DNA from: a virus | Taxonomy: Duplodnaviria; Heunggongvirae; Uroviricota; Caudoviricetes | DNA: 64,000 bases | Strand: one strand, 5' to 3' | Virus record (IMG/VR): IMGVR_UViG_2541047850_000005 | Coordinates: 3,554-67,553 of that record | Shown: positions 11,858 through 57,901 of the stretch, in pieces | Numbering within the stretch: the stretch's first letter is position 1 | Layout of the letters: each line of letters begins with the position of its first letter | Position numbers and translations under genes: made by a program | Notes under the pieces: model-generated | The model's database searches: none | What the model was told of the DNA's origin: nothing | What the model saw: the letters and a program-made list of their open reading frames with translations, nothing else

Positions 11858-12413
11858 TGCTAATCAGACCATATTCATTCGTTTGAGGATGGTTGCCGTT
11901 ATCGTCTCCGTATTTAAGACTCTCCATAAAGCCATAATGCCTATCACCATTAACGCTCACAAAGCCGTAATAAGCAGGTATAACGCCGATCTCACACGTA
12001 ACCAGCAAAGGAAAACTAGTTCTCCAATTTAGCTCGCCGATTACAGGCATCTGCTCACTACAGCTTATCCAACCATCAGGAGTAACCGGATAGTTGCGCA
12101 TTGCGACCTTAAATGCCTCATAGAAGCAACCTTTCAGATTATTGAACTGACGCCCGTTCAGAGGGCCATGTTCTGTCAACATGTTGTGTAATTTCCATGC
12201 CGCGTCGTTAACTTCGTTGGATGATCTGGGAGGCAACTTGCAAGTTTGGCTTACAGGTTCTGCACTATCAGCTTCGCGCCGCTTCTGTAGCTCTGCTGCC
12301 ATCGCTCTCACGACTTCAACTGGTGCCCTTGCAGCAAACTCTATGTTGGTGATCAGCTCATTAAGATATTGCTCGCCTGGATACTGTTTCTTATCGGTTA
12401 TAGTAGTCATATC
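11802..12413 (-). CDS. hypothetical phage protein (DUF551-like C-terminus)
   Basis: ORF trimmed to MTTITDKK…; C-terminal …VTHWMPLPEPP resembles the DUF551 signature. Confidence 0.4.
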   Translation of the reverse strand, partial: DMTTITDKKQYPGEQYLNELITNIEFAARAPVEVVRAMAAELQKRREADSAEPVSQTCKLPPRSSNEVNDAAWKLHNMLTEHGPLNGRQFNNLKGCFYEAFKVAMRNYPVTPDGWISCSEQMPVIGELNWRTSFPLLVTCEIGVIPAYYGFVSVNGDRHYGFMESLKYGDDNGNHPQTNEYGLISNVTHWMPLPEPPQESKSE

Positions 12414-12849
12414 ACTCTCCTTTTCCCTGAAGCATGGCAGCGTGGCAGGCATCCTCTACGCCCTTAACTGCATCTGCGCAGTAGTTATAGCGATTGCATT
12501 CCACTAACTTCTGCTTGAGATTTTCAATTGCTTGCGCGACATCAGCCTGTATTACGGGAACGAGGGGAGCGGCGTATACTTCAATTGTCCCATTATCAAT
12601 AGGCCACTCCCCATCCTTGATGTAGTCACTTGTGCCGTCAACTTGCTGTTCTGCAATGTGGAATGCACCTATTGGTTTTGTCTCAAGTGAGGCCAGTGCA
12701 ATTCGTGCCAGTTTTAGATCTCGTTCGACCATCTCAATAACAACTTTGCAGTCCGCACCTTCTTTACTAACACGTCCTTTCAAGTCTTCCAGATAACTAA
12801 CGCTTTCGCGTGCATGGGAGATTAACTGTTCTTTGGTTAAGGTGGTCAT
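12412..12849 (-). CDS. hypothetical protein (145 aa)
   Basis: ORF track; stop/start overlap with neighbours. Confidence 0.45.
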   Translation of the reverse strand: MTTLTKEQLISHARESVSYLEDLKGRVSKEGADCKVVIEMVERDLKLARIALASLETKPIGAFHIAEQQVDGTSDYIKDGEWPIDNGTIEVYAAPLVPVIQADVAQAIENLKQKLVECNRYNYCADAVKGVEDACHAAMLQGKGE

Positions 12850-13034
12850 TAGGCAGCTCTCTCAACAACAAGCAATTCGTCGTAGTCATAATCAGTTTCG
12901 GAACCATCCGTACCGAACAGAGTCACTTTGTCATCTTCCATCCAAAAAGATTTAACCGCACATTGTTGACCTTTAGATGTTATGAGCACATCACCAGGGA
13001 TTACATCTTCAGCGCGAACTTCTAGTGTTCTCAT
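12849..13034 (-). CDS. hypothetical small protein (61 aa)
   Basis: ORF track; packed between coupled genes. Confidence 0.3.
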   Translation of the reverse strand: MRTLEVRAEDVIPGDVLITSKGQQCAVKSFWMEDDKVTLFGTDGSETDYDYDELLVVERAA

Positions 13035-13561
13035 CGTGCTGACCCCTCTTTGGTTAAAATGCCTGCTGCAATGCTGTTTATGATGCTGTCAGTGCATGGA
13101 GTAGAAAGCTGGGCATCTCCAGCAATTTTCATGACCTCAACATCCGCATATCGAATACCGAGGTGTATCAGACCGGCTATACCTGACTTAAGTCGAACAT
13201 TTTCCATAAACAGATCTTTTTCCCGCTGTTTAGCGGCTTCCAACTCCATCGACAATTTTTCCAACTGCTCTTTATGCTTCTTGTATTCCTGATACGCGTG
13301 CCAAGACTGACCTTTGCGCACACTATCAGTGATATCAGCAACCTGCTCCGGTGTTAGCGTGGTCAGTGGCTGTGCTGGAAAAATCATCACCTTCCCGGCA
13401 TCCCAATCAAAACCCGCCTGAATTGACTGAACCTCAACTGATGGTGTTGAACCGATGCGACCAGGCGAATGAACAACGATCGTTACATCCATATCGCGAC
13501 GATGGCTGTGGTTGTTGGACAAAATACGATTCACCAACTCAGAAAATTTGGAAAATTTCAT
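13031..13561 (-). CDS. hypothetical protein
   Basis: ORF 13031..13690 trimmed to MKFSKFS… which overlaps the upstream stop by 4 nt. Confidence 0.4.
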
Positions 13562-13881
13562 GCTGATCCCTCTTTTTCTCCCCGGATAATTCTGTTGCAC
13601 ACATCCACACACTCGTCGCAGATGAAAACGGCGTCCCCAGCAATTAACTTTTTGACGGCGTACTGGGATTTGTTGCAGAAGCTGCAACAAAGTGTTCGCC
13701 TGACTGATAAGGATGGAGCGCCAGATGTCAGCCGCTCCATATCGTTCTTGCGACGCAATATCACACGGCTGAACTCAACCAGTTTCTCCGGGGATATCTC
13801 CTCCTCCGTAGCAAGCGCCTCTAATCGTTCGAGTATGTGGAAGGCTTTTTTCTGGGTAATTGCAGAATGCGATGTGGTCAT
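13558..13881 (-). CDS. stand-alone ClpX-type zinc-binding domain (C4 zinc finger) protein
   Basis: …[36 protein letters not shown]… matches the ClpX N-terminal ZBD ([36 protein letters not shown]); no AAA+ module follows; start taken at MTTSHS after an AAGGAG SD. Confidence 0.6.
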
Positions 13882-13882
13882 C

Positions 13883-14413
13883 TCACTCTCCTTTGATGCG
13901 AATGCCAGCGGCGCGGGAATCATTCCATCGCTTTACTTCTTCACGAATTACGTCAATGCATTCTTTCGAATCCATTAGGTAATCTTCATCAAAAAGACGT
14001 TCCTGTTCGTTTTCTATCGCAACAATGATTGCTTCAACTAACTTTTGTGCCTGAGAATCACTTTCTAACTCTGCTATGCGCTTACTTCCATCCGAGATAA
14101 CGCCCTCGTAATACTCACGCTGCTCGTTGAGTTTTGATTTTGCCAACTCCAGTTGTTTTGTTAGTTCCGCAATACGGCAAACATCGTTGATACGCGTTTC
14201 CTCTAATGCGTTGATCTCATCCAGTAGTGCCAGCACGGTTTCTGGTCCGGCCAGAAATTTGAAGGCGTTGAGGGCATCAATATCAACACCGCTATCTTTA
14301 AGTTCCTGTTCACTTAACAAGTCATCATCAGCTGGCAACATTAACAGGCGTTCCATTGCTGGAATTGCACGTTCCGCCACCTCACGCAGTGCCTGGTAAT
14401 TAATTTCGCTCAC
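13883..14413 (-). CDS. hypothetical protein (coiled-coil-like, 176 aa)
   Basis: ORF track. Confidence 0.45.
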
Positions 14414-14654
14414 TGGCTGCCTCCTGCTTTTCTGCCTTCAACACCATGCGAGAACCATCATCCAGCTCCCACACTATCTCACCACCTTCAGCCATGACCA
14501 GTTGCCACACCAATTGAGCAGCCTCATTGGTAACATCACGACCTGGATCATTGCCAACGCGCATACGTCCACCTTCAACATCGCGCATTTTTGCCAGCAT
14601 GATAGTTTTTGATAGCGGTGAAAAACCAAGCTGTAGTCGTGCTGAATTACTCAC
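14400..14654 (-). CDS. hypothetical protein (84 aa)
   Basis: ORF track. Confidence 0.35.
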   Translation of the reverse strand: MSNSARLQLGFSPLSKTIMLAKMRDVEGGRMRVGNDPGRDVTNEAAQLVWQLVMAEGGEIVWELDDGSRMVLKAEKQEAASERN

Positions 14655-15157
14655 TGGTTGCCTCCTTTGCGAAGCTGGTCGGCGAACAAACGTACACCAG
14701 ACGCTTCACTGCGTAGAAACTTAACGGCATCATCAAAACCACCTCGTTCTGCGTCGTCTGCTCCGTTGTCGAGGTTATCTGCGTACATCTCTACCCCCTG
14801 CGCCCGTACTTCAGCCAGAAAAGCATCGGTGGCTGGAGTCTCCGTTAATTCGCTAACCCAATTATCTCCGTGTTCCTCGGCACGCATCGCATCGAATGCT
14901 CGCTCAGATTCTTTCAGGGCTGCATTCTCCGCCGCTAATGCGTCTCTCTGCGCCCGCAACTTCTCAATTTCGGCAGCCATGTAGTAACCAACCATAGCGA
15001 AGACGGCAAAAGAGTTGTCTGCCTCATCAGGCGACACTGAGGCCATTAGCAGACCATCGTAATAATCGTGACTCCCATTGGTGATCGCCACCGCATAGGA
15101 GTCGTGGTTCTCACGCTTGTGAATGAGAACTACGGGGTTTTCGATTTTGTTACTCAT
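14651..15157 (-). CDS. hypothetical protein (168 aa)
   Basis: ORF track; conserved AAGGAAAAACAC-ATG initiation context; motif-1 copy at 15227-15248. Confidence 0.45.
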   Translation of the reverse strand: MSNKIENPVVLIHKRENHDSYAVAITNGSHDYYDGLLMASVSPDEADNSFAVFAMVGYYMAAEIEKLRAQRDALAAENAALKESERAFDAMRAEEHGDNWVSELTETPATDAFLAEVRAQGVEMYADNLDNGADDAERGGFDDAVKFLRSEASGVRLFADQLRKGGNQ

Positions 15158-16441: not shown

Positions 16442-18127
16442 TCATTTAACGCGTTTGAAAACGTATACGCTGACTGTGATCCCTGTGTCTTCAAACTCGT
16501 TGGTAAACGACTTCCCTCTGGCATAAACGTAATTATCCATCGTCATCCAGTCCAGTATTGGCGCAGTGCCCGGCAATACTGCTACAAGACGCCCGCCGAC
16601 TTTCAGATGCCCCAGCGCAGCCAGCGTGTGCTCTCTATGACGACCAAGCGAGTACGGCGGGTTCATAACGATTTTGTCGAACTGATAACCTGCGTTGTCC
16701 TCAGACCACTTTATGAAGTCGCAGCAAATCGTGTTCGTATACCCTTTTCCACGCAGGATATCAGCGAAGAGAGGTGCGATTTCTATACAGGTAACATCTT
16801 CCAGATCGGCGTTAATATAGGCCAGAAGATCCCCACGTCCGGCTTGAGGCTCCAGCAGCTTCTCACCAGGCTTCAATTCAGTGGCTCTGGCAACGTACTC
16901 AGCAATCAAGCGTGGGGTAGGGTAGAACTGGTGTGATTTTGTATCCGGTATTAAACCGGTAGCCACAATCGTATTTAGCGTATGGCCGATCTCATACTGG
17001 AACTGCCAGTGCTTTTTCTCCTGCACGCCGCCAATGAAGCTCAGTGTGCGCTCAAGCTCTTCCACCTGCGACTTCTGGAGAGCTGAATCAGAGAAGTACC
17101 ATACGCCTTTGTCTTTGCTCAATCGCCCGTCACGAAGCGCAGTGCGAACCGGCACGGAGATCGTCTTCTGGATTAACCCGAACTGCTTTGGTGCCCGTGT
17201 TTTTGGCGCAGTTCGGCATGGCGCGGGGATTGCAGCAGGCATACTGTAAGCCAGCACCTCATTCAACTTCCAGGCCACGTCAGGATGTATTTCAAAGTGA
17301 ACGTTGCCGTTCTTGAACATCTTCACGCGCATCAGATTTCCATCGACGTTCATCCAGTCACCGGTCTGGCAGTCGTTTGCCCTATACGCAGCTGATAGCA
17401 CCTCAGCAGTGCGGTTGATGGTAATAAATTCTTTGTGCGCGAAGAAATGAAGCAAGACACGCAGATCGTCGATGTAGTCCTCTTTGCGATAGTTCACGCT
17501 AACGCTGTCCCGCCAGAAATCAGAAATGCAGTCAGCGATTATCAGCCGCTCGCTGAAACCGTTTGTCTTATTTGTCTTGTGCGCAGGACTCAGCGCCTTA
17601 AACAAGCCATACACGCGCTCAGAGAGATATTTGTGCCTGTCATTCAGCAAATTAAGCATCGTGGGTATGACCGTTTCTGCTTTGAACTCCGGTACACCAA
17701 CGAACTCTTTAACCTTCATCTGATAGCCGGTTCTGTCAGTTTTGATGACTTCCTGCTTGCCCTCGATAAATTGCTCACGCCACTCGTCGCGACGGGAAGC
17801 TGGCATGATCAGCAGAACGTTAGTCATATCCGTGACCTTCCTCCAGTACTCGGCCCAAATATTCTGTTTCACCCATTCCAGATCGACGTTATCCAGCCAG
17901 ACTCGATTCAAACGTGAGCGATCTTCATCTGGTCGGTGGTTTAGTCGAAGCAGGCGATTAATCATGTTGTGGCGTTCATCGCCATAAACGAAGTCGTGTA
18001 CCTGATACATGAAGGAGATCTCTTTCTCGCACTCGGCCACAATTTCGTGGATGACGTTCATTTCCTGTCGATAGTCGATAGCAGTGTTTGAGCTGGCATC
18101 GTCCATGATGGAAAGAGCTGTATTCAT
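16442..18127 (-). CDS. N6-adenine DNA methyltransferase fused to a large N-terminal domain of unknown function
   Basis: C-terminal third has motif I-like LEPQAGRGDL and motif IV MNPPYS; about 380 N-terminal residues have no recognisable family. Confidence 0.6.
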   Translation of the reverse strand: MNTALSIMDDASSNTAIDYRQEMNVIHEIVAECEKEISFMYQVHDFVYGDERHNMINRLLRLNHRPDEDRSRLNRVWLDNVDLEWVKQNIWAEYWRKVTDMTNVLLIMPASRRDEWREQFIEGKQEVIKTDRTGYQMKVKEFVGVPEFKAETVIPTMLNLLNDRHKYLSERVYGLFKALSPAHKTNKTNGFSERLIIADCISDFWRDSVSVNYRKEDYIDDLRVLLHFFAHKEFITINRTAEVLSAAYRANDCQTGDWMNVDGNLMRVKMFKNGNVHFEIHPDVAWKLNEVLAYSMPAAIPAPCRTAPKTRAPKQFGLIQKTISVPVRTALRDGRLSKDKGVWYFSDSALQKSQVEELERTLSFIGGVQEKKHWQFQYEIGHTLNTIVATGLIPDTKSHQFYPTPRLIAEYVARATELKPGEKLLEPQAGRGDLLAYINADLEDVTCIEIAPLFADILRGKGYTNTICCDFIKWSEDNAGYQFDKIVMNPPYSLGRHREHTLAALGHLKVGGRLVAVLPGTAPILDWMTMDNYVYARGKSFTNEFEDTGITVSVYVFKRVK

Positions 18128-18230
18128 AATTGCACCATTAAGAAATGATTTGTTTAATGATGCAATTATTTCAAAAATAAAAAGGTGCTAAATAGAAATT
18201 AACAGGCAATACTTAAAATAAAGGCATTGA

Positions 18231-18905
18231 CTAATCATACTTGGATGTATTTATAACCAGGACTTTATTTGTATATAGTTTTTTTACATCCCATGTAACA
18301 TTACTTGAATACCATTCACCATTATATATTTGGTTTCCCGTTGCGCCTGTCATTGTTACGTATACAGGTCTGTCGTAAGGTGTTCGTCTATAGTTATATA
18401 CTCCAACCATTGCAGGCATTATCGCACACGGGTATCCCATATTTATGGTAAATTGAGGATTTGTAATAGTGATAATCTCTGCATCAAGGGGCATCATCTC
18501 ACCGTGATATACCATTTTACCTGCGCTATTATACATGGCAATACCATATCCTGAATGTGGTAACACCATATCAGAAAAAGCATAAACTGTTATCGTTCCG
18601 GGGTTTCCTCCAACCTGATTCAGTCTGAGAACATTATACCCATCTCTAAATTCATGAACGAACATCATATTCGCCTTATTACTGCTTTTTATAAAGAAAA
18701 AACATGATTTGTTCGACGGTATTGAAGTCTTAAAAACAGAACCTTTAGACGTGGACATTGTCCCCCTATTAATCAAATTTTGCGGTGTAAATTCTGGACT
18801 CATCCACACATTACCATTTGACTGAGTAATTGACATCCCGAACATTATTGTTATCCCCAATATGTATATATATAAGATCCAAGTCCCTTGTATAAATTTG
18901 ACCAA
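18231..18905 (-). CDS. hypothetical membrane-anchored/secreted protein in AT-rich island
   Basis: N-terminal hydrophobic segment WILYIYILGITIMFG; strongly AT-rich codons unlike neighbours. Confidence 0.4.
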   Translation of the reverse strand: MVKFIQGTWILYIYILGITIMFGMSITQSNGNVWMSPEFTPQNLINRGTMSTSKGSVFKTSIPSNKSCFFFIKSSNKANMMFVHEFRDGYNVLRLNQVGGNPGTITVYAFSDMVLPHSGYGIAMYNSAGKMVYHGEMMPLDAEIITITNPQFTINMGYPCAIMPAMVGVYNYRRTPYDRPVYVTMTGATGNQIYNGEWYSSNVTWDVKKLYTNKVLVINTSKYD

Positions 18906-19132
18906 CTTACTGTATTGCCGTTAATAGTGATAGTTGGTGTAGGTATATTTACATGGTTATCGTTATTTAAAGGCATCAATGAGCACACAGCATGTAATGA
19001 TTTGCCAGGTGGTGGATTTGGGTAAGTCTTAGAGCCTGACGTGGTTGTAAATCGATCAAGAAAAAAAATAGGAGTAAGGAAGCCGGTAACGTTAACTCCC
19101 TTATTATTGTAGATCCCTGTACCGTATGCCAT
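18851..19132 (-). CDS. hypothetical protein in AT-rich island
   Basis: ORF track, 93 aa; overlaps the next ORF in another frame, so boundaries uncertain. Confidence 0.3.
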   Translation of the reverse strand: MAYGTGIYNNKGVNVTGFLTPIFFLDRFTTTSGSKTYPNPPPGKSLHAVCSLMPLNNDNHVNIPTPTITINGNTVSWSNLYKGLGSYIYTYWG

Positions 19133-19186
19133 TTTTCATCCTTGTTTTTATCAACATAATATGGCCGATCATGCGGCCATATCAGA

Positions 19187-19756
19187 TCAATTAGAGCTTT
19201 GAAAGGCTTTGTGTGGCTGTGTTGCGAGGTTATGTCGATGGCTTAACTCACGCATCATGTCTTCAAAGCGACTCTTTGTGTCGTCGAGTTGGTCAGCCAT
19301 TGCTCCTAAAAGCTGACGAACTACCATCGGATCGTCGCTGTTTAGTGATGGCATTTTATAACCCGCCTGAGAAGACATCAGATTGAATGCAGACATCAAC
19401 ATCGTTAGAGAGGATTTAAGCCCGGCAATTTCACGATCTTTGCTGGCAATAATCGTCTCACTTTTGTTACTGTCATGAGTTCCTTGAGTCTCGCTCACCA
19501 TATCCAAAGTCGCCTGCAACTTATCAGCGCGCTCTTTTTCAGCAAGATAATGAACACCGAAATGATGTGCTAAAGCTACAACCTGAGTTGGCTCTTCAAA
19601 GGTGGACTCAAAATTAAGTGCTGTAACCACTCTCTCAAAAATGGAAACGTCTTCTATTCCTCGAAGAATGGCTAACATTTTGACCAGTTCATTAGCATCC
19701 ATTTCTTCGAATAAGGCGTTTTGTTCATCAGCTATCGCTTTGCATTTCTTGCACAT
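19187..19756 (-). CDS. hypothetical protein (189 aa)
   Basis: ORF track; motif-1 copy 19773-19797 plus AGGAAAAACAC-ATG context. Confidence 0.45.
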   Translation of the reverse strand: MCKKCKAIADEQNALFEEMDANELVKMLAILRGIEDVSIFERVVTALNFESTFEEPTQVVALAHHFGVHYLAEKERADKLQATLDMVSETQGTHDSNKSETIIASKDREIAGLKSSLTMLMSAFNLMSSQAGYKMPSLNSDDPMVVRQLLGAMADQLDDTKSRFEDMMRELSHRHNLATQPHKAFQSSN

Positions 19757-20053: not shown

Positions 20054-20479
20054 TTAGAGATAAGCATCCAGTGACAACTGAAGCGCCTGGGCGATCTTTT
20101 TCAGCGCCTGCTCTTCTGGTTCATCAATGCCGTCTTGGTCGGCAATATCAAGGCACAGACAAAGTACATCTACTGCATCATCAGTCCCGGCCACATCCGC
20201 CAGCTCACGTAAAGCCTGGGCATTAGCACGGCGCGGTGAGGCTTCGTATTGAGCGCGGATATTGGCGCTCATCTGGGCAATCTCACCAGCAAAAGGAGAA
20301 AATGCAGGCAGAGCTGCAATTGTTTTCTCAAGAATGGAAATTTCTTTTGCATCGCATGTACCGTTGGCATAGGAGATCATGTACCCACCCCACACGGTGG
20401 CTTCAACCGCATCACGGTTCTCCATTTTTTTGACTTCGATAACTGCTTTACGAGTTTTCTTTTTGAAGAAACCTAACAT
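20054..20479 (-). CDS. hypothetical protein, possibly TerB-like
   Basis: Acidic C-terminal segment …DQDGIDEPEEQALKKIAQAL… resembles TerB-family proteins (weak); motif-1 copy at 20500-20520. Confidence 0.35.
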   Translation of the reverse strand: MLGFFKKKTRKAVIEVKKMENRDAVEATVWGGYMISYANGTCDAKEISILEKTIAALPAFSPFAGEIAQMSANIRAQYEASPRRANAQALRELADVAGTDDAVDVLCLCLDIADQDGIDEPEEQALKKIAQALQLSLDAYL

Positions 20480-34523: not shown

Positions 34524-36429
34524 AGCTGCGCCCCTCTTTAACTTCCAGCGTAATAGTTTCCCGGAACCATGACTTCATCTCTTTATGGGAGATAATCAGC
34601 ACAGTACCTCGCTCGCGAGCTTTGGACTCCAGAATACCCATGAGGCGTTCAAGACCGGCTGTATCGAGTGCATCGTCAATTTCGTCGCCGATAAACAAAT
34701 CGATGTTTTTACTCGCCCGGTTACTAACCAGATCCTGCAATGCCAAAGAACACGCAATGCGAACCTTCCGCTTCTCACCACCAGAGAGGGTCTGGAACGA
34801 CTTACTTGAACCTTTCTTCTGCACACTAATGTTGAATTTGTCGCGATACTCACCTTTTTTGGTGACATCCATCGTCGACCACTCAGCAGTAATATTCCCG
34901 TCAGACAACGTATTGAGATACTCGGCAGTGCGTGTATTCAGGAAAGGCGTAACAGACGTCAAAATATGAGAACGCACCCCGGCAGGAGAGTAGACCTGAC
35001 GAGCTTTTTCCAATAGCAACGTTTGTTCCTGAATAGCCTTCAACTCATCTTTTAAGGACTTGAAGGTAGACTTACTGGATACCAGGTTATCTTCGTGTCT
35101 GGCGATAAGAGCAATAAACGGATTAATCTCTTTTGATATACGATCGACCTCAGTACGAGCACGAGTCACAAGAGACTCAATAGCAACAACCTCCTTCTCA
35201 CGATGACGCAAAGATGAGAGTTGTTTCGTAAGCTCTTCAATCCGGGCAATGATAGCCGTTACATCAGGTGTCGTTTTAACAAGGGCAGACTCAATGCTTA
35301 ACGCTTTCTCAAGATTCGTTTTGTGTTTAGCCATTGCCTCTGCAAGTGTCTTCGCCTGACCAATTTCCTGACGTGCTTGTTCAATGAAATTCTCCTTCAC
35401 CGTTGATAGATCTTCTTCGCAGTAGGCTTTGCCACAAGTAGGGCATGGTGATCCCACTTTAGTACCAACCTCTTCTGCTTTGGTCTTAAAATTACGCGCG
35501 CGGCTCATTGCATCAGCCTGACTATTTTCTGTAGCTTTGATGCTTGCCCGAATATCAGTTATCGCACCACGAACTTTGAGCAACTTGGCGTCATGTTCTT
35601 CTTTTGAGGCTAACTTTTTGCGCTCACTTTCGATTGCCTTCTCGGTATCACGGATCTGTTCGGGAAGAGTGCGGATCTCAAGTTCAACTTCCGTTAACTC
35701 AACTTCGGCACTGGCCAGCCCAGCCAGGGCATCGTCATAACGTTTAGAACGCTCTTGCTCCCATGATTCAGAGGAGGCTTTCGCTGACTCAATTTCTGAC
35801 TGTGTTGCCTCAATGGTCGAGATTGTCGACTCCAATTTGGTTTTAACCACATCCATACGTGCGGCAGCTGCATTAGCTCGCTCACGAGCAATAGCGTAGG
35901 CGCGTGTCAGTCTGTCAACGCCAGCGGCTTCTTCTACGATGGTTTTGAGGTTTTTGTCGGACATTCCAGGTAAATCTGGCATAGCTTCTTGGCTCGCATA
36001 GATGGAAGCCATGAAAACCTCTTTAGATGCACCGATCAGACGCTCGACGAACTCTTGCGTCAGCGCATCTTTGCCTTTCGTCATATCGCCGTCTTCACCA
36101 CGAACGATAAGCCGATTTTTGAACTCTTTGTGTTTACGGTGACGAATGATCGCATATCTCTTGCCTTCATCCTCGATGGTTACTGCAACACGACAGTTCT
36201 TTTCATGGTCGGTAGACAACACATCGTCACCCTTCACACCATGAGCTGTTTCGCCATAAAGACACCACATCAGGCTATTCATTAGCGTTGACTTTCCAGA
36301 GCCATTACTTGATGCGGAACTATCATCACTATTAACACCCTGAATGAGCACTAAACCACGCTGATCTAACTCGACCTCCGCGCTGGCGATAGCCATAAAA
36401 TTCTCAACCTGGAGCTTTAAAAACTTCAT
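34513..36429 (-). CDS. sbcC: SbcC/Rad50-like ATPase
   Basis: Walker A NGSGKSTLMNSL, central CPTCG zinc hook in a coiled coil, C-terminal signature LSGGEKRKV and Walker B LFIGDEIDDALD. Confidence 0.8.
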   Translation of the reverse strand: MKFLKLQVENFMAIASAEVELDQRGLVLIQGVNSDDSSASSNGSGKSTLMNSLMWCLYGETAHGVKGDDVLSTDHEKNCRVAVTIEDEGKRYAIIRHRKHKEFKNRLIVRGEDGDMTKGKDALTQEFVERLIGASKEVFMASIYASQEAMPDLPGMSDKNLKTIVEEAAGVDRLTRAYAIARERANAAAARMDVVKTKLESTISTIEATQSEIESAKASSESWEQERSKRYDDALAGLASAEVELTEVELEIRTLPEQIRDTEKAIESERKKLASKEEHDAKLLKVRGAITDIRASIKATENSQADAMSRARNFKTKAEEVGTKVGSPCPTCGKAYCEEDLSTVKENFIEQARQEIGQAKTLAEAMAKHKTNLEKALSIESALVKTTPDVTAIIARIEELTKQLSSLRHREKEVVAIESLVTRARTEVDRISKEINPFIALIARHEDNLVSSKSTFKSLKDELKAIQEQTLLLEKARQVYSPAGVRSHILTSVTPFLNTRTAEYLNTLSDGNITAEWSTMDVTKKGEYRDKFNISVQKKGSSKSFQTLSGGEKRKVRIACSLALQDLVSNRASKNIDLFIGDEIDDALDTAGLERLMGILESKARERGTVLIISHKEMKSWFRETITLEVKEGRSYVV

Positions 36430-56777: not shown

Positions 56778-57875
56778 AAAATTTAGACGAATAAGCTCTG
56801 TTGATAGACGATCTCCCTTGAATTTGTGGTCAATTTCGTCTAAATCCGGTTGCTCTACGATTGATGCGATGTACGTTGAGAAACTTTCTAAGGCGTCTCG
56901 CATCTCGTCCATATAATCGTGCCGGTCGTAGACCCGATCTATCCCCTCAAGACTGTGGTTCATGATTTTGCGTGATACCTCCTGGCTTATGCCTAATGCT
57001 GGGAAGTAACTACGCGCAGTACGACGCAAATCTCGGGGTGTAAATGGCGCAAGCTCCATCAGTTCTGGTCGTTCCAGAATACGACGTAATGCCTGGGCTA
57101 TTGCCACTTTAGACATAGGAAGGTCTTTCCCGATTTTTTTATTCGAAGGCACGAGCCACTGGCTGTCTTTACCGTATTCGAACAACTCTTCAATGCATGT
57201 GCGCATTAATGTGCTTAAAGGCAGCGAATGCTCACGTGCTGACTTGTTTCTCTTGCCTTGATTCCAAACTCCACGCTTAAGATTGAACTCACTTTTTTTA
57301 GCCCTCAGTACTTCGTCAGGTCGTCTTGCTGATACAAGACACAGCCTGGCCGCCCATTTTGTACCAGCGCACACATTGAAGTAGTCCCATATATTCCAGA
57401 ACACCCATACCTCTGCGTCGGTCAGCTTCCGCTCGCGAGGTGTGGGCTTTGCGCCACCGGCAACTTTGTTTAGTGACATATCGTTTAACGGTGACACGTC
57501 TATCATCCCCTGGAAGGCGCACCAGCTAAGGAACTGCTTCATCAGAGAGAAAACGCGGCGGCCCATAACAATTTTGCCATCCAGTATTAGTGGGTTGACC
57601 AGTTGGTTCACCATGAACCTATTAATGTCACTTACTTTTACATCGGCAATGTGCGGCAAAACATGTATCAAAATACAATGAACAGCGATCTCTGGCCGAC
57701 GTCTGGTTATCAGCAGAGATAAGCGAGTGAATAACATGAATGCGTCCGAGAATTTCATATCATTGCTAACCTGCGAGATCATAACGGCCTGCATTTGAGA
57801 TGCTCTTTCGAGATACTCAATCGCCTCTTTTGAGGTGTTCTCAGCAGCGCGTGCTCTGTCAAAGCTATTTTTCAT
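56772..57875 (-). CDS. tyrosine-type site-specific recombinase/integrase
   Basis: 367 aa; candidate catalytic Arg (ARRPDEV), RDLRRTARSYF and HSLEGIDRVYDRHDY fit the R…H-x-x-R…Y pattern. Confidence 0.75.
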   Translation of the reverse strand: MKNSFDRARAAENTSKEAIEYLERASQMQAVMISQVSNDMKFSDAFMLFTRLSLLITRRRPEIAVHCILIHVLPHIADVKVSDINRFMVNQLVNPLILDGKIVMGRRVFSLMKQFLSWCAFQGMIDVSPLNDMSLNKVAGGAKPTPRERKLTDAEVWVFWNIWDYFNVCAGTKWAARLCLVSARRPDEVLRAKKSEFNLKRGVWNQGKRNKSAREHSLPLSTLMRTCIEELFEYGKDSQWLVPSNKKIGKDLPMSKVAIAQALRRILERPELMELAPFTPRDLRRTARSYFPALGISQEVSRKIMNHSLEGIDRVYDRHDYMDEMRDALESFSTYIASIVEQPDLDEIDHKFKGDRLSTELIRLNFS

Positions 57876-57901
57876 ATGACAATCACCGAGTTACGCCGAT
57901 T

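What the first reader, a model, noticed from the sequence alone, without database searches (positions are those of the whole stretch)
18130..19150. AT-rich insert carrying two overlapping ORFs for membrane/secreted proteins (moron-like cassette)
About 1 kb that is visibly much more AT-rich than the flanks. It encodes a 224-aa protein with an N-terminal signal-anchor and an overlapping 93-aa ORF in another frame. It has no motif-1 or motif-2 promoter of its own. Such cassettes in prophages often encode superinfection exclusion, defence or host-interaction functions; this one has no recognisable domain.
Basis: partly seen in the sequence, partly recalled or inferred. Interest (0 to 1): 0.5.

Follow-up and report, generated by a model that had tools for sequence, protein, structure and literature searches.

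The report
Displaced two-gene phage receptor-binding module
The AT-rich kilobase is a real insertion in an SSU5-like E. coli phage-plasmid, but it most likely encodes a two-piece tail-tip receptor-binding protein of an already described phage family, sitting far from the tail genes, rather than membrane or secreted "moron" proteins.

Summary
The window is an SSU5-like E. coli phage-plasmid, 100% identical to phage PhiR41_1. The AT-rich patch is real: GC 35% against a window mean of 45%. It is also a real insertion, because a related plasmid has only 141 nt at this site.

The "224-aa signal-anchor protein overlapping a 93-aa ORF" is a longest-ORF artefact. All homologs start at the ATG at 18845. 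That gives a 204-aa soluble protein, 5 nt after the stop of the 93-aa gene.

The pair matches PHROG 557 and PHROG 425. The same pair lies beside the tail-tip gene in Stx phages and in T1-like and Nonagvirus phages. Together the two proteins align colinearly with single ~315-aa proteins encoded just after J.

Both genes are under purifying selection (dN/dS about 0.1) but diverge about eightfold more than their flanks.

Verdict: a displaced member of a known, mostly in-silico-proposed receptor-binding family. Its role here and its receptor are untested.

The parts
18851..19132 (-). Gene for the 93-aa small subunit (PHROG 557, the 'Ig-like small protein'). It corresponds to the N-terminal, tail-proximal ~95 residues of single-chain ~315-aa relatives.
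   Evidence: ORF. phrog_557 at E 1.4e-29 over the full length. Conserved family alignment A2. hhalign against residues 16-80 of the fused family: probability 93%, E 2.9e-7. AF2 model is a beta-sandwich, pLDDT 82.5. dN/dS 0.08 against the Cyrano allele. AAGGA lies 6 nt before the ATG.
18231..18845 (-). Gene for the 204-aa large subunit (PHROG 425, the 'hand-like' or 'membrane associated' protein). It is the putative receptor-binding body, made of two beta-sandwich domains.
18846..18905 (-). Spurious 5' extension of the 204-aa gene (TTG at 18905). This created the '224-aa signal-anchor protein' and the apparent overlap.
   Evidence: No homolog or annotation uses it. It is out of frame over the conserved 3' end of the 93-aa gene. 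It contains the only hydrophobic segment.
19150..19191 (-). Stable RNA hairpin between the stop of the upstream 189-aa gene and the 93-aa gene. It could be a weak terminator or a processing or stability element at the 5' edge of the insert.
   Evidence: Minimum free energy -18.8 kcal/mol, z -3.3. The empty-site plasmid has a different GC-rich hairpin here. Its function is not shown.
18225..19186 (.). Approximate extent of the insertion relative to the empty site in the related phage-plasmid NZ_CP070135.1.
   Evidence: Annotation of the empty site: 141 nt between the DUF4942 gene and the 188-aa gene. Alignment of both junctions. A local identity dip to 80-88% against 95-100% in the flanks, compared with Cyrano and pEC332_01. 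No flanking direct repeats.

Best explanation
The cassette encodes a two-polypeptide receptor-binding module of the virion tail tip.

The 93-aa protein is the equivalent of the N-terminal, tail-proximal domain of single-chain ~315-aa receptor-binding proteins. The 204-aa protein is the equivalent of their two-beta-sandwich body.

Inferred mechanism:
- The two proteins associate.
- They cap the conserved C-terminal tip of the trimeric central tail fibre J, which is encoded about 60 kb away.
- Loops at the far end of the 204-aa protein bind an outer-membrane protein of E. coli as the terminal receptor.

The module acts in trans, so its gene position is free. In this lineage it sits as an insertion in the early/DNA-metabolism region instead of the tail operon. 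Different alleles are exchanged by recombination.

Shown here: gene structure, family membership, the split/fused relationship, the fold resemblance, the J-tip type, the empty site, the near-exclusive distribution of the two loci, and purifying selection.

Inferred: docking on J, receptor binding, expression timing, and the identity of the receptor. BamA is only a candidate, from 60% identity to the Stx-phage protein.
For: 1. Family and synteny.
- The pair matches PHROG 557 and 425.
- The same small-then-large pair lies next to the tail-tip gene in 933W (L0126/L0127 after L0125), Warwickvirus tunus, Nonagvirus JenP2 and Pectobacterium phage Koroua.
- In tunus the unit is lipoprotein gene, then 93 aa, then 204 aa, antisense to J. 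Phage Rtp, whose Rtp45-LptDE complex is solved, has the same layout: rtp45 lipoprotein then rtp44 RBP, antisense to J (PMC12685063).

2. Split gene.
- An HMM search finds ~315-aa relatives.
- The 93-aa family aligns to their residues 16-80 (probability 93%) and the 204-aa family to residues 101-310 (probability 99.5%).
- The fused form in Pantoea phage Vid5 starts at the stop of J.

3. Fold.

4. J tip.
- The last ~190-240 aa of the J protein of PhiR41_1 and Cyrano are homologous (35-37% identity, E about 1e-31) to the J C-termini of JenP2, Vid5 and tunus, and more weakly (26-29% identity, E 1e-17 to 1e-19) to that of Koroua.
- The last 24 aa match 933W L0125.

5. Distribution.
- Other SSU5-like phage-plasmids carry a 25-30%-identical pair in the tail operon after J and the tail fibre. 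One of them has an empty early site.
- PhiR41_1 and Cyrano have no such pair in their tail operons.
- Of 254 plasmids with a hit there are only 265 places in all. So at most 11 plasmids carry two modules.

6. Selection.
- dN/dS is 0.08-0.105, with dS 0.65-0.85 against 0.07-0.10 in the flanks. Identity dips exactly over the cassette.

7. Literature.
- The RBP-locus allele correlates with the terminal receptor in small siphoviruses (PMC8594841).
- phi24B gp54 (204 aa) is in the virion proteome, and there is extra density at the needle tip (bioRxiv 10.64898/2026.04.10.717836).
- An in-silico RBP proposal exists for PHROG 425/557 (PMC12309495).
Against: - In Stx2 phage Sp5, in-frame deletions of the orthologs ORF72 (92 aa) and ORF73 (205 aa) were made. 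They are not among the nine genes whose loss abolished plaques or lysogeny on K-12 (PMC5155283 main text and supplement). The module is therefore not essential there.
- No member of the 93+204 clade has been shown to bind a receptor.
- Sequence similarity to the validated Rtp44/Oekolampad RBPs is not significant. The link rests on a predicted structure.
- In this genome the genes lie among early/DNA-metabolism genes, without an adjacent lipoprotein gene and with no evidence of late expression.
- The same J tip (99% identical over the last 178 aa compared) would have to accept two modules that are only 25-30% identical.
Confidence: 0.6

Rival explanations
1. Moron-type cassette. The proteins are expressed from the resident plasmid-prophage and act on the host envelope for superinfection exclusion, defence or host interaction.
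For: It is an AT-rich insert with an empty site in a relative. It lies outside the structural operon. The orthologs are dispensable for Sp5 infectivity. In Stx phages it sits next to lom.
Against: There is no signal peptide, lipobox or transmembrane segment in either protein, so they cannot reach the envelope by known routes. No PADLOC hit. The true exclusion proteins at these loci are separate small lipoproteins, and none is present here. The ortholog is found in virions (bioRxiv 10.64898/2026.04.10.717836). Low GC is family-wide.
Confidence: 0.1
2. A tail-tip cap or assembly/stabilising factor for the J fibre with no receptor specificity of its own. Alternatively, an accessory adhesin that only improves adsorption on some hosts, while J or the side fibres carry the essential specificity.
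For: It is non-essential in Sp5. J in this phage is long, at 1535 aa. The two divergent modules share conserved N-terminal motifs, M-YG...LxP..(F/Y)LD.FT..GS..(T/S)Y and MYG.xI...G..WMSP, which could be the docking parts.
Against: The fold matches a protein proven to bind LptDE through its distal loops (PMC12685063). Allelic variants at the homologous locus track receptor use in small siphoviruses (PMC8594841). Synonymous divergence eightfold above the flanks indicates that alleles are exchanged, as at host-range loci.
Confidence: 0.2
3. A functionless hitch-hiking remnant of a recombination event with another phage.
For: The position is odd. There is no obvious promoter of its own above background: 10 sigma-70-like sites against 6.5 +/- 2.1 expected in 2.2 kb.
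Against: Both ORFs are intact in 150 of 5426 complete E. coli genomes. dN/dS is about 0.1 over dS 0.65-0.85. Both have good Shine-Dalgarno sequences and tight coupling.
Confidence: 0.03

Closest known systems
PHROG 557 + PHROG 425 pair of Stx phages and small siphoviruses: 933W L0126/L0127, Sp5 ORF72/ORF73, phi24B gp55/gp54, and the Dhillonvirus JLBYU60 'Ig-like' + 'hand-like' proteins
   Same: Same two families, same order, sizes and tight coupling. Amino-acid identity of the 204-aa protein is 80% to JenP2, 60% to Stx phages and 41% to Warwickvirus.
   Different: Here the pair is not next to the tail-tip gene. It is inserted about 60 kb away among early/DNA-metabolism genes of a phage-plasmid.
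Rtp44 / Oekolampad RBP (LptD-binding receptor-binding proteins of small siphoviruses; PDB 9rpt)
   Different: Those are single ~310-aa chains, whereas ours is split into 93 + 204 aa. There is no significant sequence similarity. The receptor of our module is unknown.
T5 pb5 (oad) with Llp
   Same: The concept of a separate monomeric RBP attached non-covalently to the tip of a central fibre, with a cognate exclusion lipoprotein encoded beside it (PMC9586334 and PMC8594841, as cited in those papers).
   Different: No sequence or fold match was found here. pb5 is about 640 aa. The analogy is functional only.
Lambda-type morons (lom, bor) and Cor/Llp exclusion lipoproteins
   Same: Compositionally deviant, dispensable genes, variably present and located near tail genes in lambdoid phages. 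In 933W the pair is adjacent to lom.
   Different: Those proteins carry export signals and reside in the envelope. The two proteins here have none.

Membership tests
PHROG 557 / PHROG 425 tail-tip pair ('Ig-like small' + 'hand-like' proteins) | Full-length profile match of both proteins | tested here: met
   phrog_425 at E 1.8e-69 (residues 1-204) and phrog_557 at E 1.4e-29 (residues 1-93).
PHROG 557 / PHROG 425 tail-tip pair ('Ig-like small' + 'hand-like' proteins) | Small gene immediately followed by the large gene on the same strand | tested here: met
   A 5-nt spacer between the stop at 18851 and the ATG at 18845. The same arrangement is seen in 933W, tunus, JenP2 and Koroua.
PHROG 557 / PHROG 425 tail-tip pair ('Ig-like small' + 'hand-like' proteins) | Location directly beside the tail-tip (J / tail spike / needle) gene | tested here: not met
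   J lies about 60 kb away in Cyrano and PhiR41_1. The neighbours here are a DUF4942 methyltransferase gene and an unknown 189-aa gene.
PHROG 557 / PHROG 425 tail-tip pair ('Ig-like small' + 'hand-like' proteins) | The genome's J protein ends in the conserved C-terminal tip domain shared by the J proteins of phages that carry the pair; it is assumed, not checked, to be the 'knife-like' domain of PMC12309495 | tested here: met
   PhiR41_1 J residues 1348-1535 match the JenP2, Vid5, tunus and Koroua J C-termini at E 1e-17 to 1e-33. The last 24 aa are 62% identical to 933W L0125.
PHROG 557 / PHROG 425 tail-tip pair ('Ig-like small' + 'hand-like' proteins) | Presence in the virion | not testable with these tools
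   Known only for phi24B gp54, at low abundance (bioRxiv 10.64898/2026.04.10.717836).
Rtp44 / Oekolampad-type receptor-binding proteins of small siphoviruses | Two-beta-sandwich RBP fold | tested here: met
Rtp44 / Oekolampad-type receptor-binding proteins of small siphoviruses | Detectable sequence homology | tested here: not met
   hhalign of A1, A2 and A3 against Rtp44 gives E 0.036 to 0.55, with only colinear motif-level matches. PDB profile searches find nothing.
Rtp44 / Oekolampad-type receptor-binding proteins of small siphoviruses | Single polypeptide of about 310 aa | tested here: not met
   The module is split into 93 + 204 aa. Fused ~315-aa relatives exist and align colinearly.
Rtp44 / Oekolampad-type receptor-binding proteins of small siphoviruses | Binding of an outer-membrane protein receptor | not testable with these tools
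   No binding data exist for any member of the 93+204 clade.
Moron / superinfection-exclusion envelope proteins (Lom, Bor, Cor, Llp, Rtp45) | Export signal: signal peptide, lipobox or transmembrane segment | tested here: not met
   Maximum 19-residue hydropathy is 1.12 and 0.79. The only hydrophobic segment lies in the spurious extension. True lipoproteins at related loci have a clear lipobox.
Moron / superinfection-exclusion envelope proteins (Lom, Bor, Cor, Llp, Rtp45) | Autonomous promoter and terminator | tested here: inconclusive
   Only weak 9/12 sigma-70-like matches at background frequency. There are stable hairpins on both sides but without T-runs.
Moron / superinfection-exclusion envelope proteins (Lom, Bor, Cor, Llp, Rtp45) | Deviant composition and presence/absence polymorphism | tested here: met
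   GC 0.354 against 0.452. An empty site exists in NZ_CP070135.1. However, low GC is family-wide.
Known anti-phage defence systems (PADLOC) | Profile match to a defence protein | tested here: not met
   No family at E <= 1 for either protein.

The most novel reading that the evidence does not exclude
The module is a free-standing host-range cassette that acts in trans. It can land anywhere in a phage genome and still cap a conserved J tip.

SSU5-like phage-plasmids with virtually the same J tip (99% identical) would then use either a tail-operon module (84 + 202 aa) or this early-region module (93 + 204 aa, 25-30% identical, closest to a virulent Nonagvirus and to Stx phages). They would switch terminal receptor by cassette exchange across phage morphotypes. 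The few plasmids carrying both, such as NZ_CP116406.1, would make virions with two tropisms.
Probability: 0.3. Interest if true: 0.6.

Novelty: new member of a known kind. Interest (0 to 1): 0.35.

Why it matters
If the reading is right, host range in a common family of E. coli phage-plasmids is set by a small portable two-gene module that does not need to sit in the tail operon. About 3% of complete E. coli genomes carry this cassette, and related elements spread resistance genes. Genome-context rules for finding receptor-binding proteins would then miss it.

The colinear split/fused relationship, together with the fold match to the LptDE-bound Oekolampad protein, ties the poorly characterised "membrane associated protein" and "outer membrane protein" annotations of Stx phages to an experimentally grounded receptor-binding fold. 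This suggests those database names are wrong. The work also corrects a mis-called start that created a false signal anchor.

The family and its proposed role are already in the literature, so this is an extension, not a discovery of a new kind.

Tried and rejected
- Pfam, NCBIfam and PADLOC scans of both proteins found nothing usable. A Thioredoxin_4 hit at E 0.25 for the 93-aa protein was dismissed as noise.
- PDB sequence and profile searches with the 204-aa, 93-aa and fused families gave no relevant hits.
- Direct BLASTP and hhalign between the 93-aa and 204-aa proteins gave only a 14-residue YG.x.YN..G motif match (E 0.018-0.24). That is not evidence of internal duplication.
- Foldseek against BFVD with the 204-aa model returned only uncharacterised phage proteins.
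- hhalign against Rtp44 to establish sequence homology with the validated LptD-binding proteins was not significant.
- A search for direct repeats or transposition signatures at the insert borders found none.
- tRNA scan of the window found none.
- Literature searches for PhiR41_1, and for a receptor of SSU5-like E. coli phage-plasmids or of JenP2, found nothing usable.
- The PGAP name "cysteine peptidase family C39 domain-containing protein" for the sister allele was considered and rejected for lack of any profile support.
- A programmed frameshift joining the two ORFs was considered and rejected. The 93-aa frame is conserved to its stop. The 204-aa family has its own conserved M-(F/Y/H)-G start (MFGMSI/MYGMSI/MYGLSI), and the window gene has its own Shine-Dalgarno sequence.
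Full report
**Origin of the window.** The region 18100-19200 is 100% identical to Escherichia phage PhiR41_1 (108 kb, circular). It is 99.7% identical to the 109-kb plasmid of E. coli O104:H4 2009EL-2050, and 86.5% identical to phage Cyrano (identical in length to the E. coli LF82 plasmid NC_011917.1) and about 147 other ~110-kb E. coli plasmids. These are SSU5-like phage-plasmids. All neighbouring genes are on the minus strand. They include Ea22/Ead-like genes, a DUF4942 N6-adenine methyltransferase, TerB-like and DUF3927 genes, RNase H and another methyltransferase.

**The observation: composition.** The composition claim holds.
- GC of 18130-19150 is 0.354, against a window mean of 0.452 (sd 0.040). 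Only 3.7% of equal-length windows are as low (profile).
- The adjacent methyltransferase gene has GC 0.50.
- This is not the most AT-rich part of the window. The stretch at 57-62 kb reaches 0.31.

**The observation: gene calls.** The gene calls do not hold as written.
- The 224-aa ORF starts at a TTG at 18905 only because that is the first possible start after a stop.
- All 14 full-length homologs begin M-(F/Y/H)-G-(M/L/A/C)-(S/A)-I at the position of the ATG at 18845. Two of three independent annotations use that start and the third (Cyrano) a start three codons inside it; none uses the TTG.
- The 20 extra residues contain the only hydrophobic stretch that passes a transmembrane threshold. 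Without them the maximum 19-residue hydropathy is 1.12 for the 204-aa protein and 0.79 for the 93-aa protein.
- The extension overlaps the 3' end of the 93-aa gene, whose product has a nearly invariant C-terminus.
- The real arrangement is two tightly coupled genes. The 93-aa stop is at 18851, five nucleotides follow, and the ATG is at 18845. Shine-Dalgarno-like AAGGA and GGGGA precede the two starts.

**What the genes are.**
- Pfam, NCBIfam and PADLOC find nothing.
- Both proteins match phage families over their full length. The 204-aa protein matches phrog_425, named "membrane associated protein", at 1.8e-69. The 93-aa protein matches phrog_557, named "outer membrane protein", at 1.4e-29. 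These names are inherited annotations. Neither protein has an export signal.
- tblastn finds the 204-aa protein in 475 phage records and the 93-aa protein in 278. The 204-aa protein is 80% identical in Nonagvirus JenP2, 60% in Stx phages (933W, VT2-Sakai and many others) and 41% in Warwickvirus phages such as tunus and SECphi27. Webervirus, Dhillonvirus and Pectobacterium phages carry it at 24-33%.
- In each phage examined the small gene is followed by the large gene, next to the tail-tip gene. Examples are 933W L0126/L0127 after L0125 and before lom, tunus gp03/gp04 beside J, JenP2 gp22/gp21 between J and a tail protein, and Koroua directly after J.

**A split gene.**
- A profile search of 1.84 billion representative proteins returned 117 relatives. 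Among them were about ten proteins of 309-325 aa, in which the 204-aa profile matches residues ~100-260.
- Profile-profile comparison shows the relationship is colinear. The 204-aa family aligns with residues 101-310 of these proteins (probability 99.5%, E 3.6e-22). The 93-aa family aligns with residues 16-80 (probability 93%, E 2.9e-7).
- Shared motifs are visible by eye: M.(Y/F)G at the N-terminus, D.F...GS.(S/T)Y, and SGNTV(S/T)W.
- The fused form occurs in Pantoea phage Vid5, where gp23 starts at the stop codon of the J-like gp22.
- The pair is therefore a two-chain version of a single-chain protein encoded directly downstream of J.

**Fold.**
- AlphaFold2 on the 15-sequence alignment gives an all-beta model of the 204-aa protein with mean pLDDT 81.5. 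Two confident domains cover residues ~20-94 and ~116-204. The N-terminus and the linker have low confidence, and these are the two places that carry the YG.x.YN..G motif.
- That protein and its relative Rtp44 are described as two lectin-like beta-sandwiches. They bind LptD through loops at the distal tip, and their phage-proximal part is poorly ordered (PMC12685063, PMC13035648).
- Sequence-level homology to Rtp44 could not be shown (E 0.036-0.55). PDB profile searches also found nothing. Membership in that family therefore rests on fold and synteny only.
- The 93-aa protein models as a small beta-sandwich (pLDDT 82.5) with no informative structural neighbour.

**Synteny with a validated locus.**
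- In phage Rtp, rtp45 (the exclusion lipoprotein whose complex with LptDE is solved) and rtp44 (the RBP) lie downstream of J on the opposite strand, lipoprotein first.
- Tunus has the same layout. gp02 has a classic lipoprotein signal (MKKLIAVIATVAALTGC), followed by the 93-aa and 204-aa genes, all antisense to J.
[quoted passage not shown] Its allelic variants matched the terminal receptor of every small siphovirus tested (PMC8594841).

**What the literature already says.**
- Matusiak et al. 2025 (PMC12309495) proposed, from modelling, that the PHROG 557 "Ig-like small" protein and the PHROG 425 "hand-like" protein terminate tail spikes that end in a "knife-like" domain and act as undetected receptor-binding proteins. 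Their examples were Dhillonvirus JLBYU60 with FhuA and phi24B with BamA.
- A 2026 preprint on phi24B found gp54 (204 aa) in the virion proteome at low abundance. It also saw unassigned density at the tip of the needle, and suggested that gp54, with or without gp55, is the BamA-binding protein.
- Against this, Mondal et al. 2016 made in-frame deletions of Sp5 ORF72 (92 aa) and ORF73 (205 aa). Neither is among the nine genes required for plaques or lysogeny on K-12.
- So the role is proposed, partly supported, and not essential in at least one phage.

**The situation in this phage-plasmid: the J tip.**
- The tail genes are far from the cassette. In Cyrano, J is at 17.7-22.4 kb and the pair at 81.9-82.8 kb. 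In PhiR41_1, J is at 62.4-67.0 kb of the record and the pair at 17.3-18.2 kb.
- Even so, the J protein has the right kind of tip. Its last 190-240 residues are 35-37% identical (E about 1e-31) to the C-termini of the J proteins of JenP2, Vid5 and tunus, and 26-29% identical (E 1e-17 to 1e-19) to that of Koroua. Its last 24 residues are 62% identical to the end of 933W L0125, as in ...IDVYDDNNVLRVRIGRL against ...IEVYDQNGRLAVRIGRLR.

**The situation in this phage-plasmid: two alternative loci.**
- Other SSU5-like phage-plasmids carry a distant version of the pair inside the tail operon. It is 84 aa plus about 202 aa, and 25-30% identical to ours. The annotated 188-aa start is probably too short: an in-frame MYGSKIYRSDGKVWMSP overlaps the upstream stop. 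The operon order is J, tail fibre, small gene, large gene, then a lipoprotein gene in the Enterobacter hormaechei plasmid, then the lysis genes.
- In the E. coli example, NZ_CP070135.1, the early locus is empty. Only 141 nt, with a GC-rich hairpin, separate the DUF4942 gene from the homolog of the 189-aa gene.
- Conversely, PhiR41_1 and Cyrano have nothing resembling the pair in their tail operons.
- The J C-terminus of the plasmid with the tail-operon pair is 99% identical to Cyrano's and 90% identical to PhiR41_1's.

**The situation in this phage-plasmid: distribution.**
- Across PLSDB, 254 plasmids have a hit and there are 265 places in total.
- The 132 plasmids whose best place is below 60% identity lack the early-type cassette at the >=60%-identity level; the 20 such plasmids listed each show a single hit, apart from K. 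aerogenes NZ_CP026760.1, which has two places of undetermined kind.
- At most 11 plasmids can have two copies.
- One plasmid, NZ_CP116406.1, demonstrably has both.
- Among complete E. coli genomes, 251 have the flanking methyltransferase gene, 150 have this cassette and 68 have the tail-operon pair.
- I did not obtain a full per-replicon census.

**Evolutionary signal.**
- Compared with Cyrano and pEC332_01, nucleotide identity is 95-100% from 15.0 to 18.2 kb and from 19.2 to 25.2 kb, apart from a short dip to 0.875-0.95 over the TerB-like gene at 20.0-20.4 kb. It falls to 80-88% exactly over 18.2-19.0 kb.
- Between the two alleles, dN/dS is 0.080 for the 93-aa gene and 0.105 for the 204-aa gene. 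dS is 0.85 and 0.65, against 0.07-0.10 in the flanking methyltransferase and 189-aa genes.
- Both genes are therefore real and constrained. The alleles are much older than their flanks, which is what allelic exchange by recombination produces. Accelerated amino-acid change would look different.
- The module has lower GC than its surroundings in all nine phages and plasmids examined, by 2.5 to 10.7 points. AT-richness is therefore a family trait, consistent with its N/Y/T/S/G/I-rich composition.
- No direct repeats flank the insert.

**Interpretation.**
- The best-supported reading is that the cassette encodes a two-chain tail-tip receptor-binding module that acts in trans on the J tip.
- Shown here: gene structure, family, the split/fused relation, fold resemblance, J-tip type, the empty site, near-exclusive locus use, and purifying selection.
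- Inferred: heterodimer formation, docking, receptor binding and late expression.
- The receptor cannot be named. BamA is a candidate only because phi24B, whose protein is 60% identical, depends on BamA.
- The Sp5 deletion result keeps my confidence at about 0.6. It also leaves room for an accessory-adhesin or cap role (about 0.2).
Its weaknesses are the lack of an export signal, the virion association of the ortholog, and the fact that the real exclusion proteins at these loci are separate lipoproteins.

**Novelty.**
- The family and its proposed function are already described, so this is a new member of a known kind.
- Two points may not have been stated before. One is the colinear split/fused relationship, together with the fold link to the LptDE-bound Oekolampad protein. 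The other is the use of two alternative loci, the tail operon or an early-region insertion, by phage-plasmids with essentially the same J tip.
- These are modest but testable.

Noticed in passing
window ~17420-17452 (inside the DUF4942 methyltransferase gene, 16442-18127, minus strand): A 33-nt stretch matches at 100% an annotated CRISPR array in the chromosome of E. coli AST85 (NZ_AP043644.1, 2998337-2998369). This looks like a natural spacer against this phage-plasmid family.
   Followed up: no
window 18126-18169: A 16-nt inverted repeat (ATAATTGCACCATTAA / TTAATGATGCAATTAT) forms a stable RNA hairpin on the minus strand (z -3.3), and its 3' arm contains the methyltransferase start codon. 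It is kept, with compensatory base changes, in the empty-site plasmid NZ_CP070135.1. This suggests translational control or an operator for the methyltransferase gene.
   Followed up: partly
window 19150-19191: A stable hairpin (-18.8 kcal/mol, z -3.3) lies just after the 189-aa gene and before the 93-aa gene. The empty-site plasmid has a different GC-rich hairpin (GGGGGCTGTCGCCCCC) at the same place.
   Followed up: partly
window 57400-62550: The most AT-rich part of the window, with GC down to 0.31 in 1-kb windows. It is lower than the finding itself and was not examined.
   Followed up: no
L003 6132-6746 (pEC332_01) and other RefSeq plasmids: PGAP names the sister allele of the 204-aa protein (WP_000467662.1) 'cysteine peptidase family C39 domain-containing protein'. 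No Pfam or NCBIfam model supports this for our allele, so it is probably a misleading name.
   Followed up: partly
window 12000-14900: The Ea22/Ead-like gene block is mosaic between PhiR41_1, Cyrano and pEC332_01, with identity falling to 10-35% in aligned 200-nt bins. This is a second variable region close to the cassette.
   Followed up: no
window 20054-20479 (TerB-like gene): Synonymous divergence from Cyrano (dS 0.33) is three to four times that of neighbouring genes. This is another locally exchanged segment.
   Followed up: no
L014 5121-5354 (E. hormaechei plasmid); L005 2025-2294 (phage tunus): Small lipoprotein genes with clear lipoboxes sit directly next to the pair in these genomes. 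They are probably cognate superinfection-exclusion proteins like Rtp45. The window cassette has none.
   Followed up: partly
plasmid NZ_CP116406.1 (E. coli HH107), 88997-89608 and 35222-36084: This phage-plasmid carries both the early-region cassette and the tail-operon pair, so it is a candidate for dual receptor specificity.
   Followed up: no
L013 4499-4545 (NZ_CP070135.1): The annotated 188-aa start of the tail-operon large subunit is probably wrong. An in-frame ATG overlapping the upstream stop (TAATG) gives MYGSKIYRSDGKVWMSP..., which restores the family's conserved N-terminus.
   Followed up: partly
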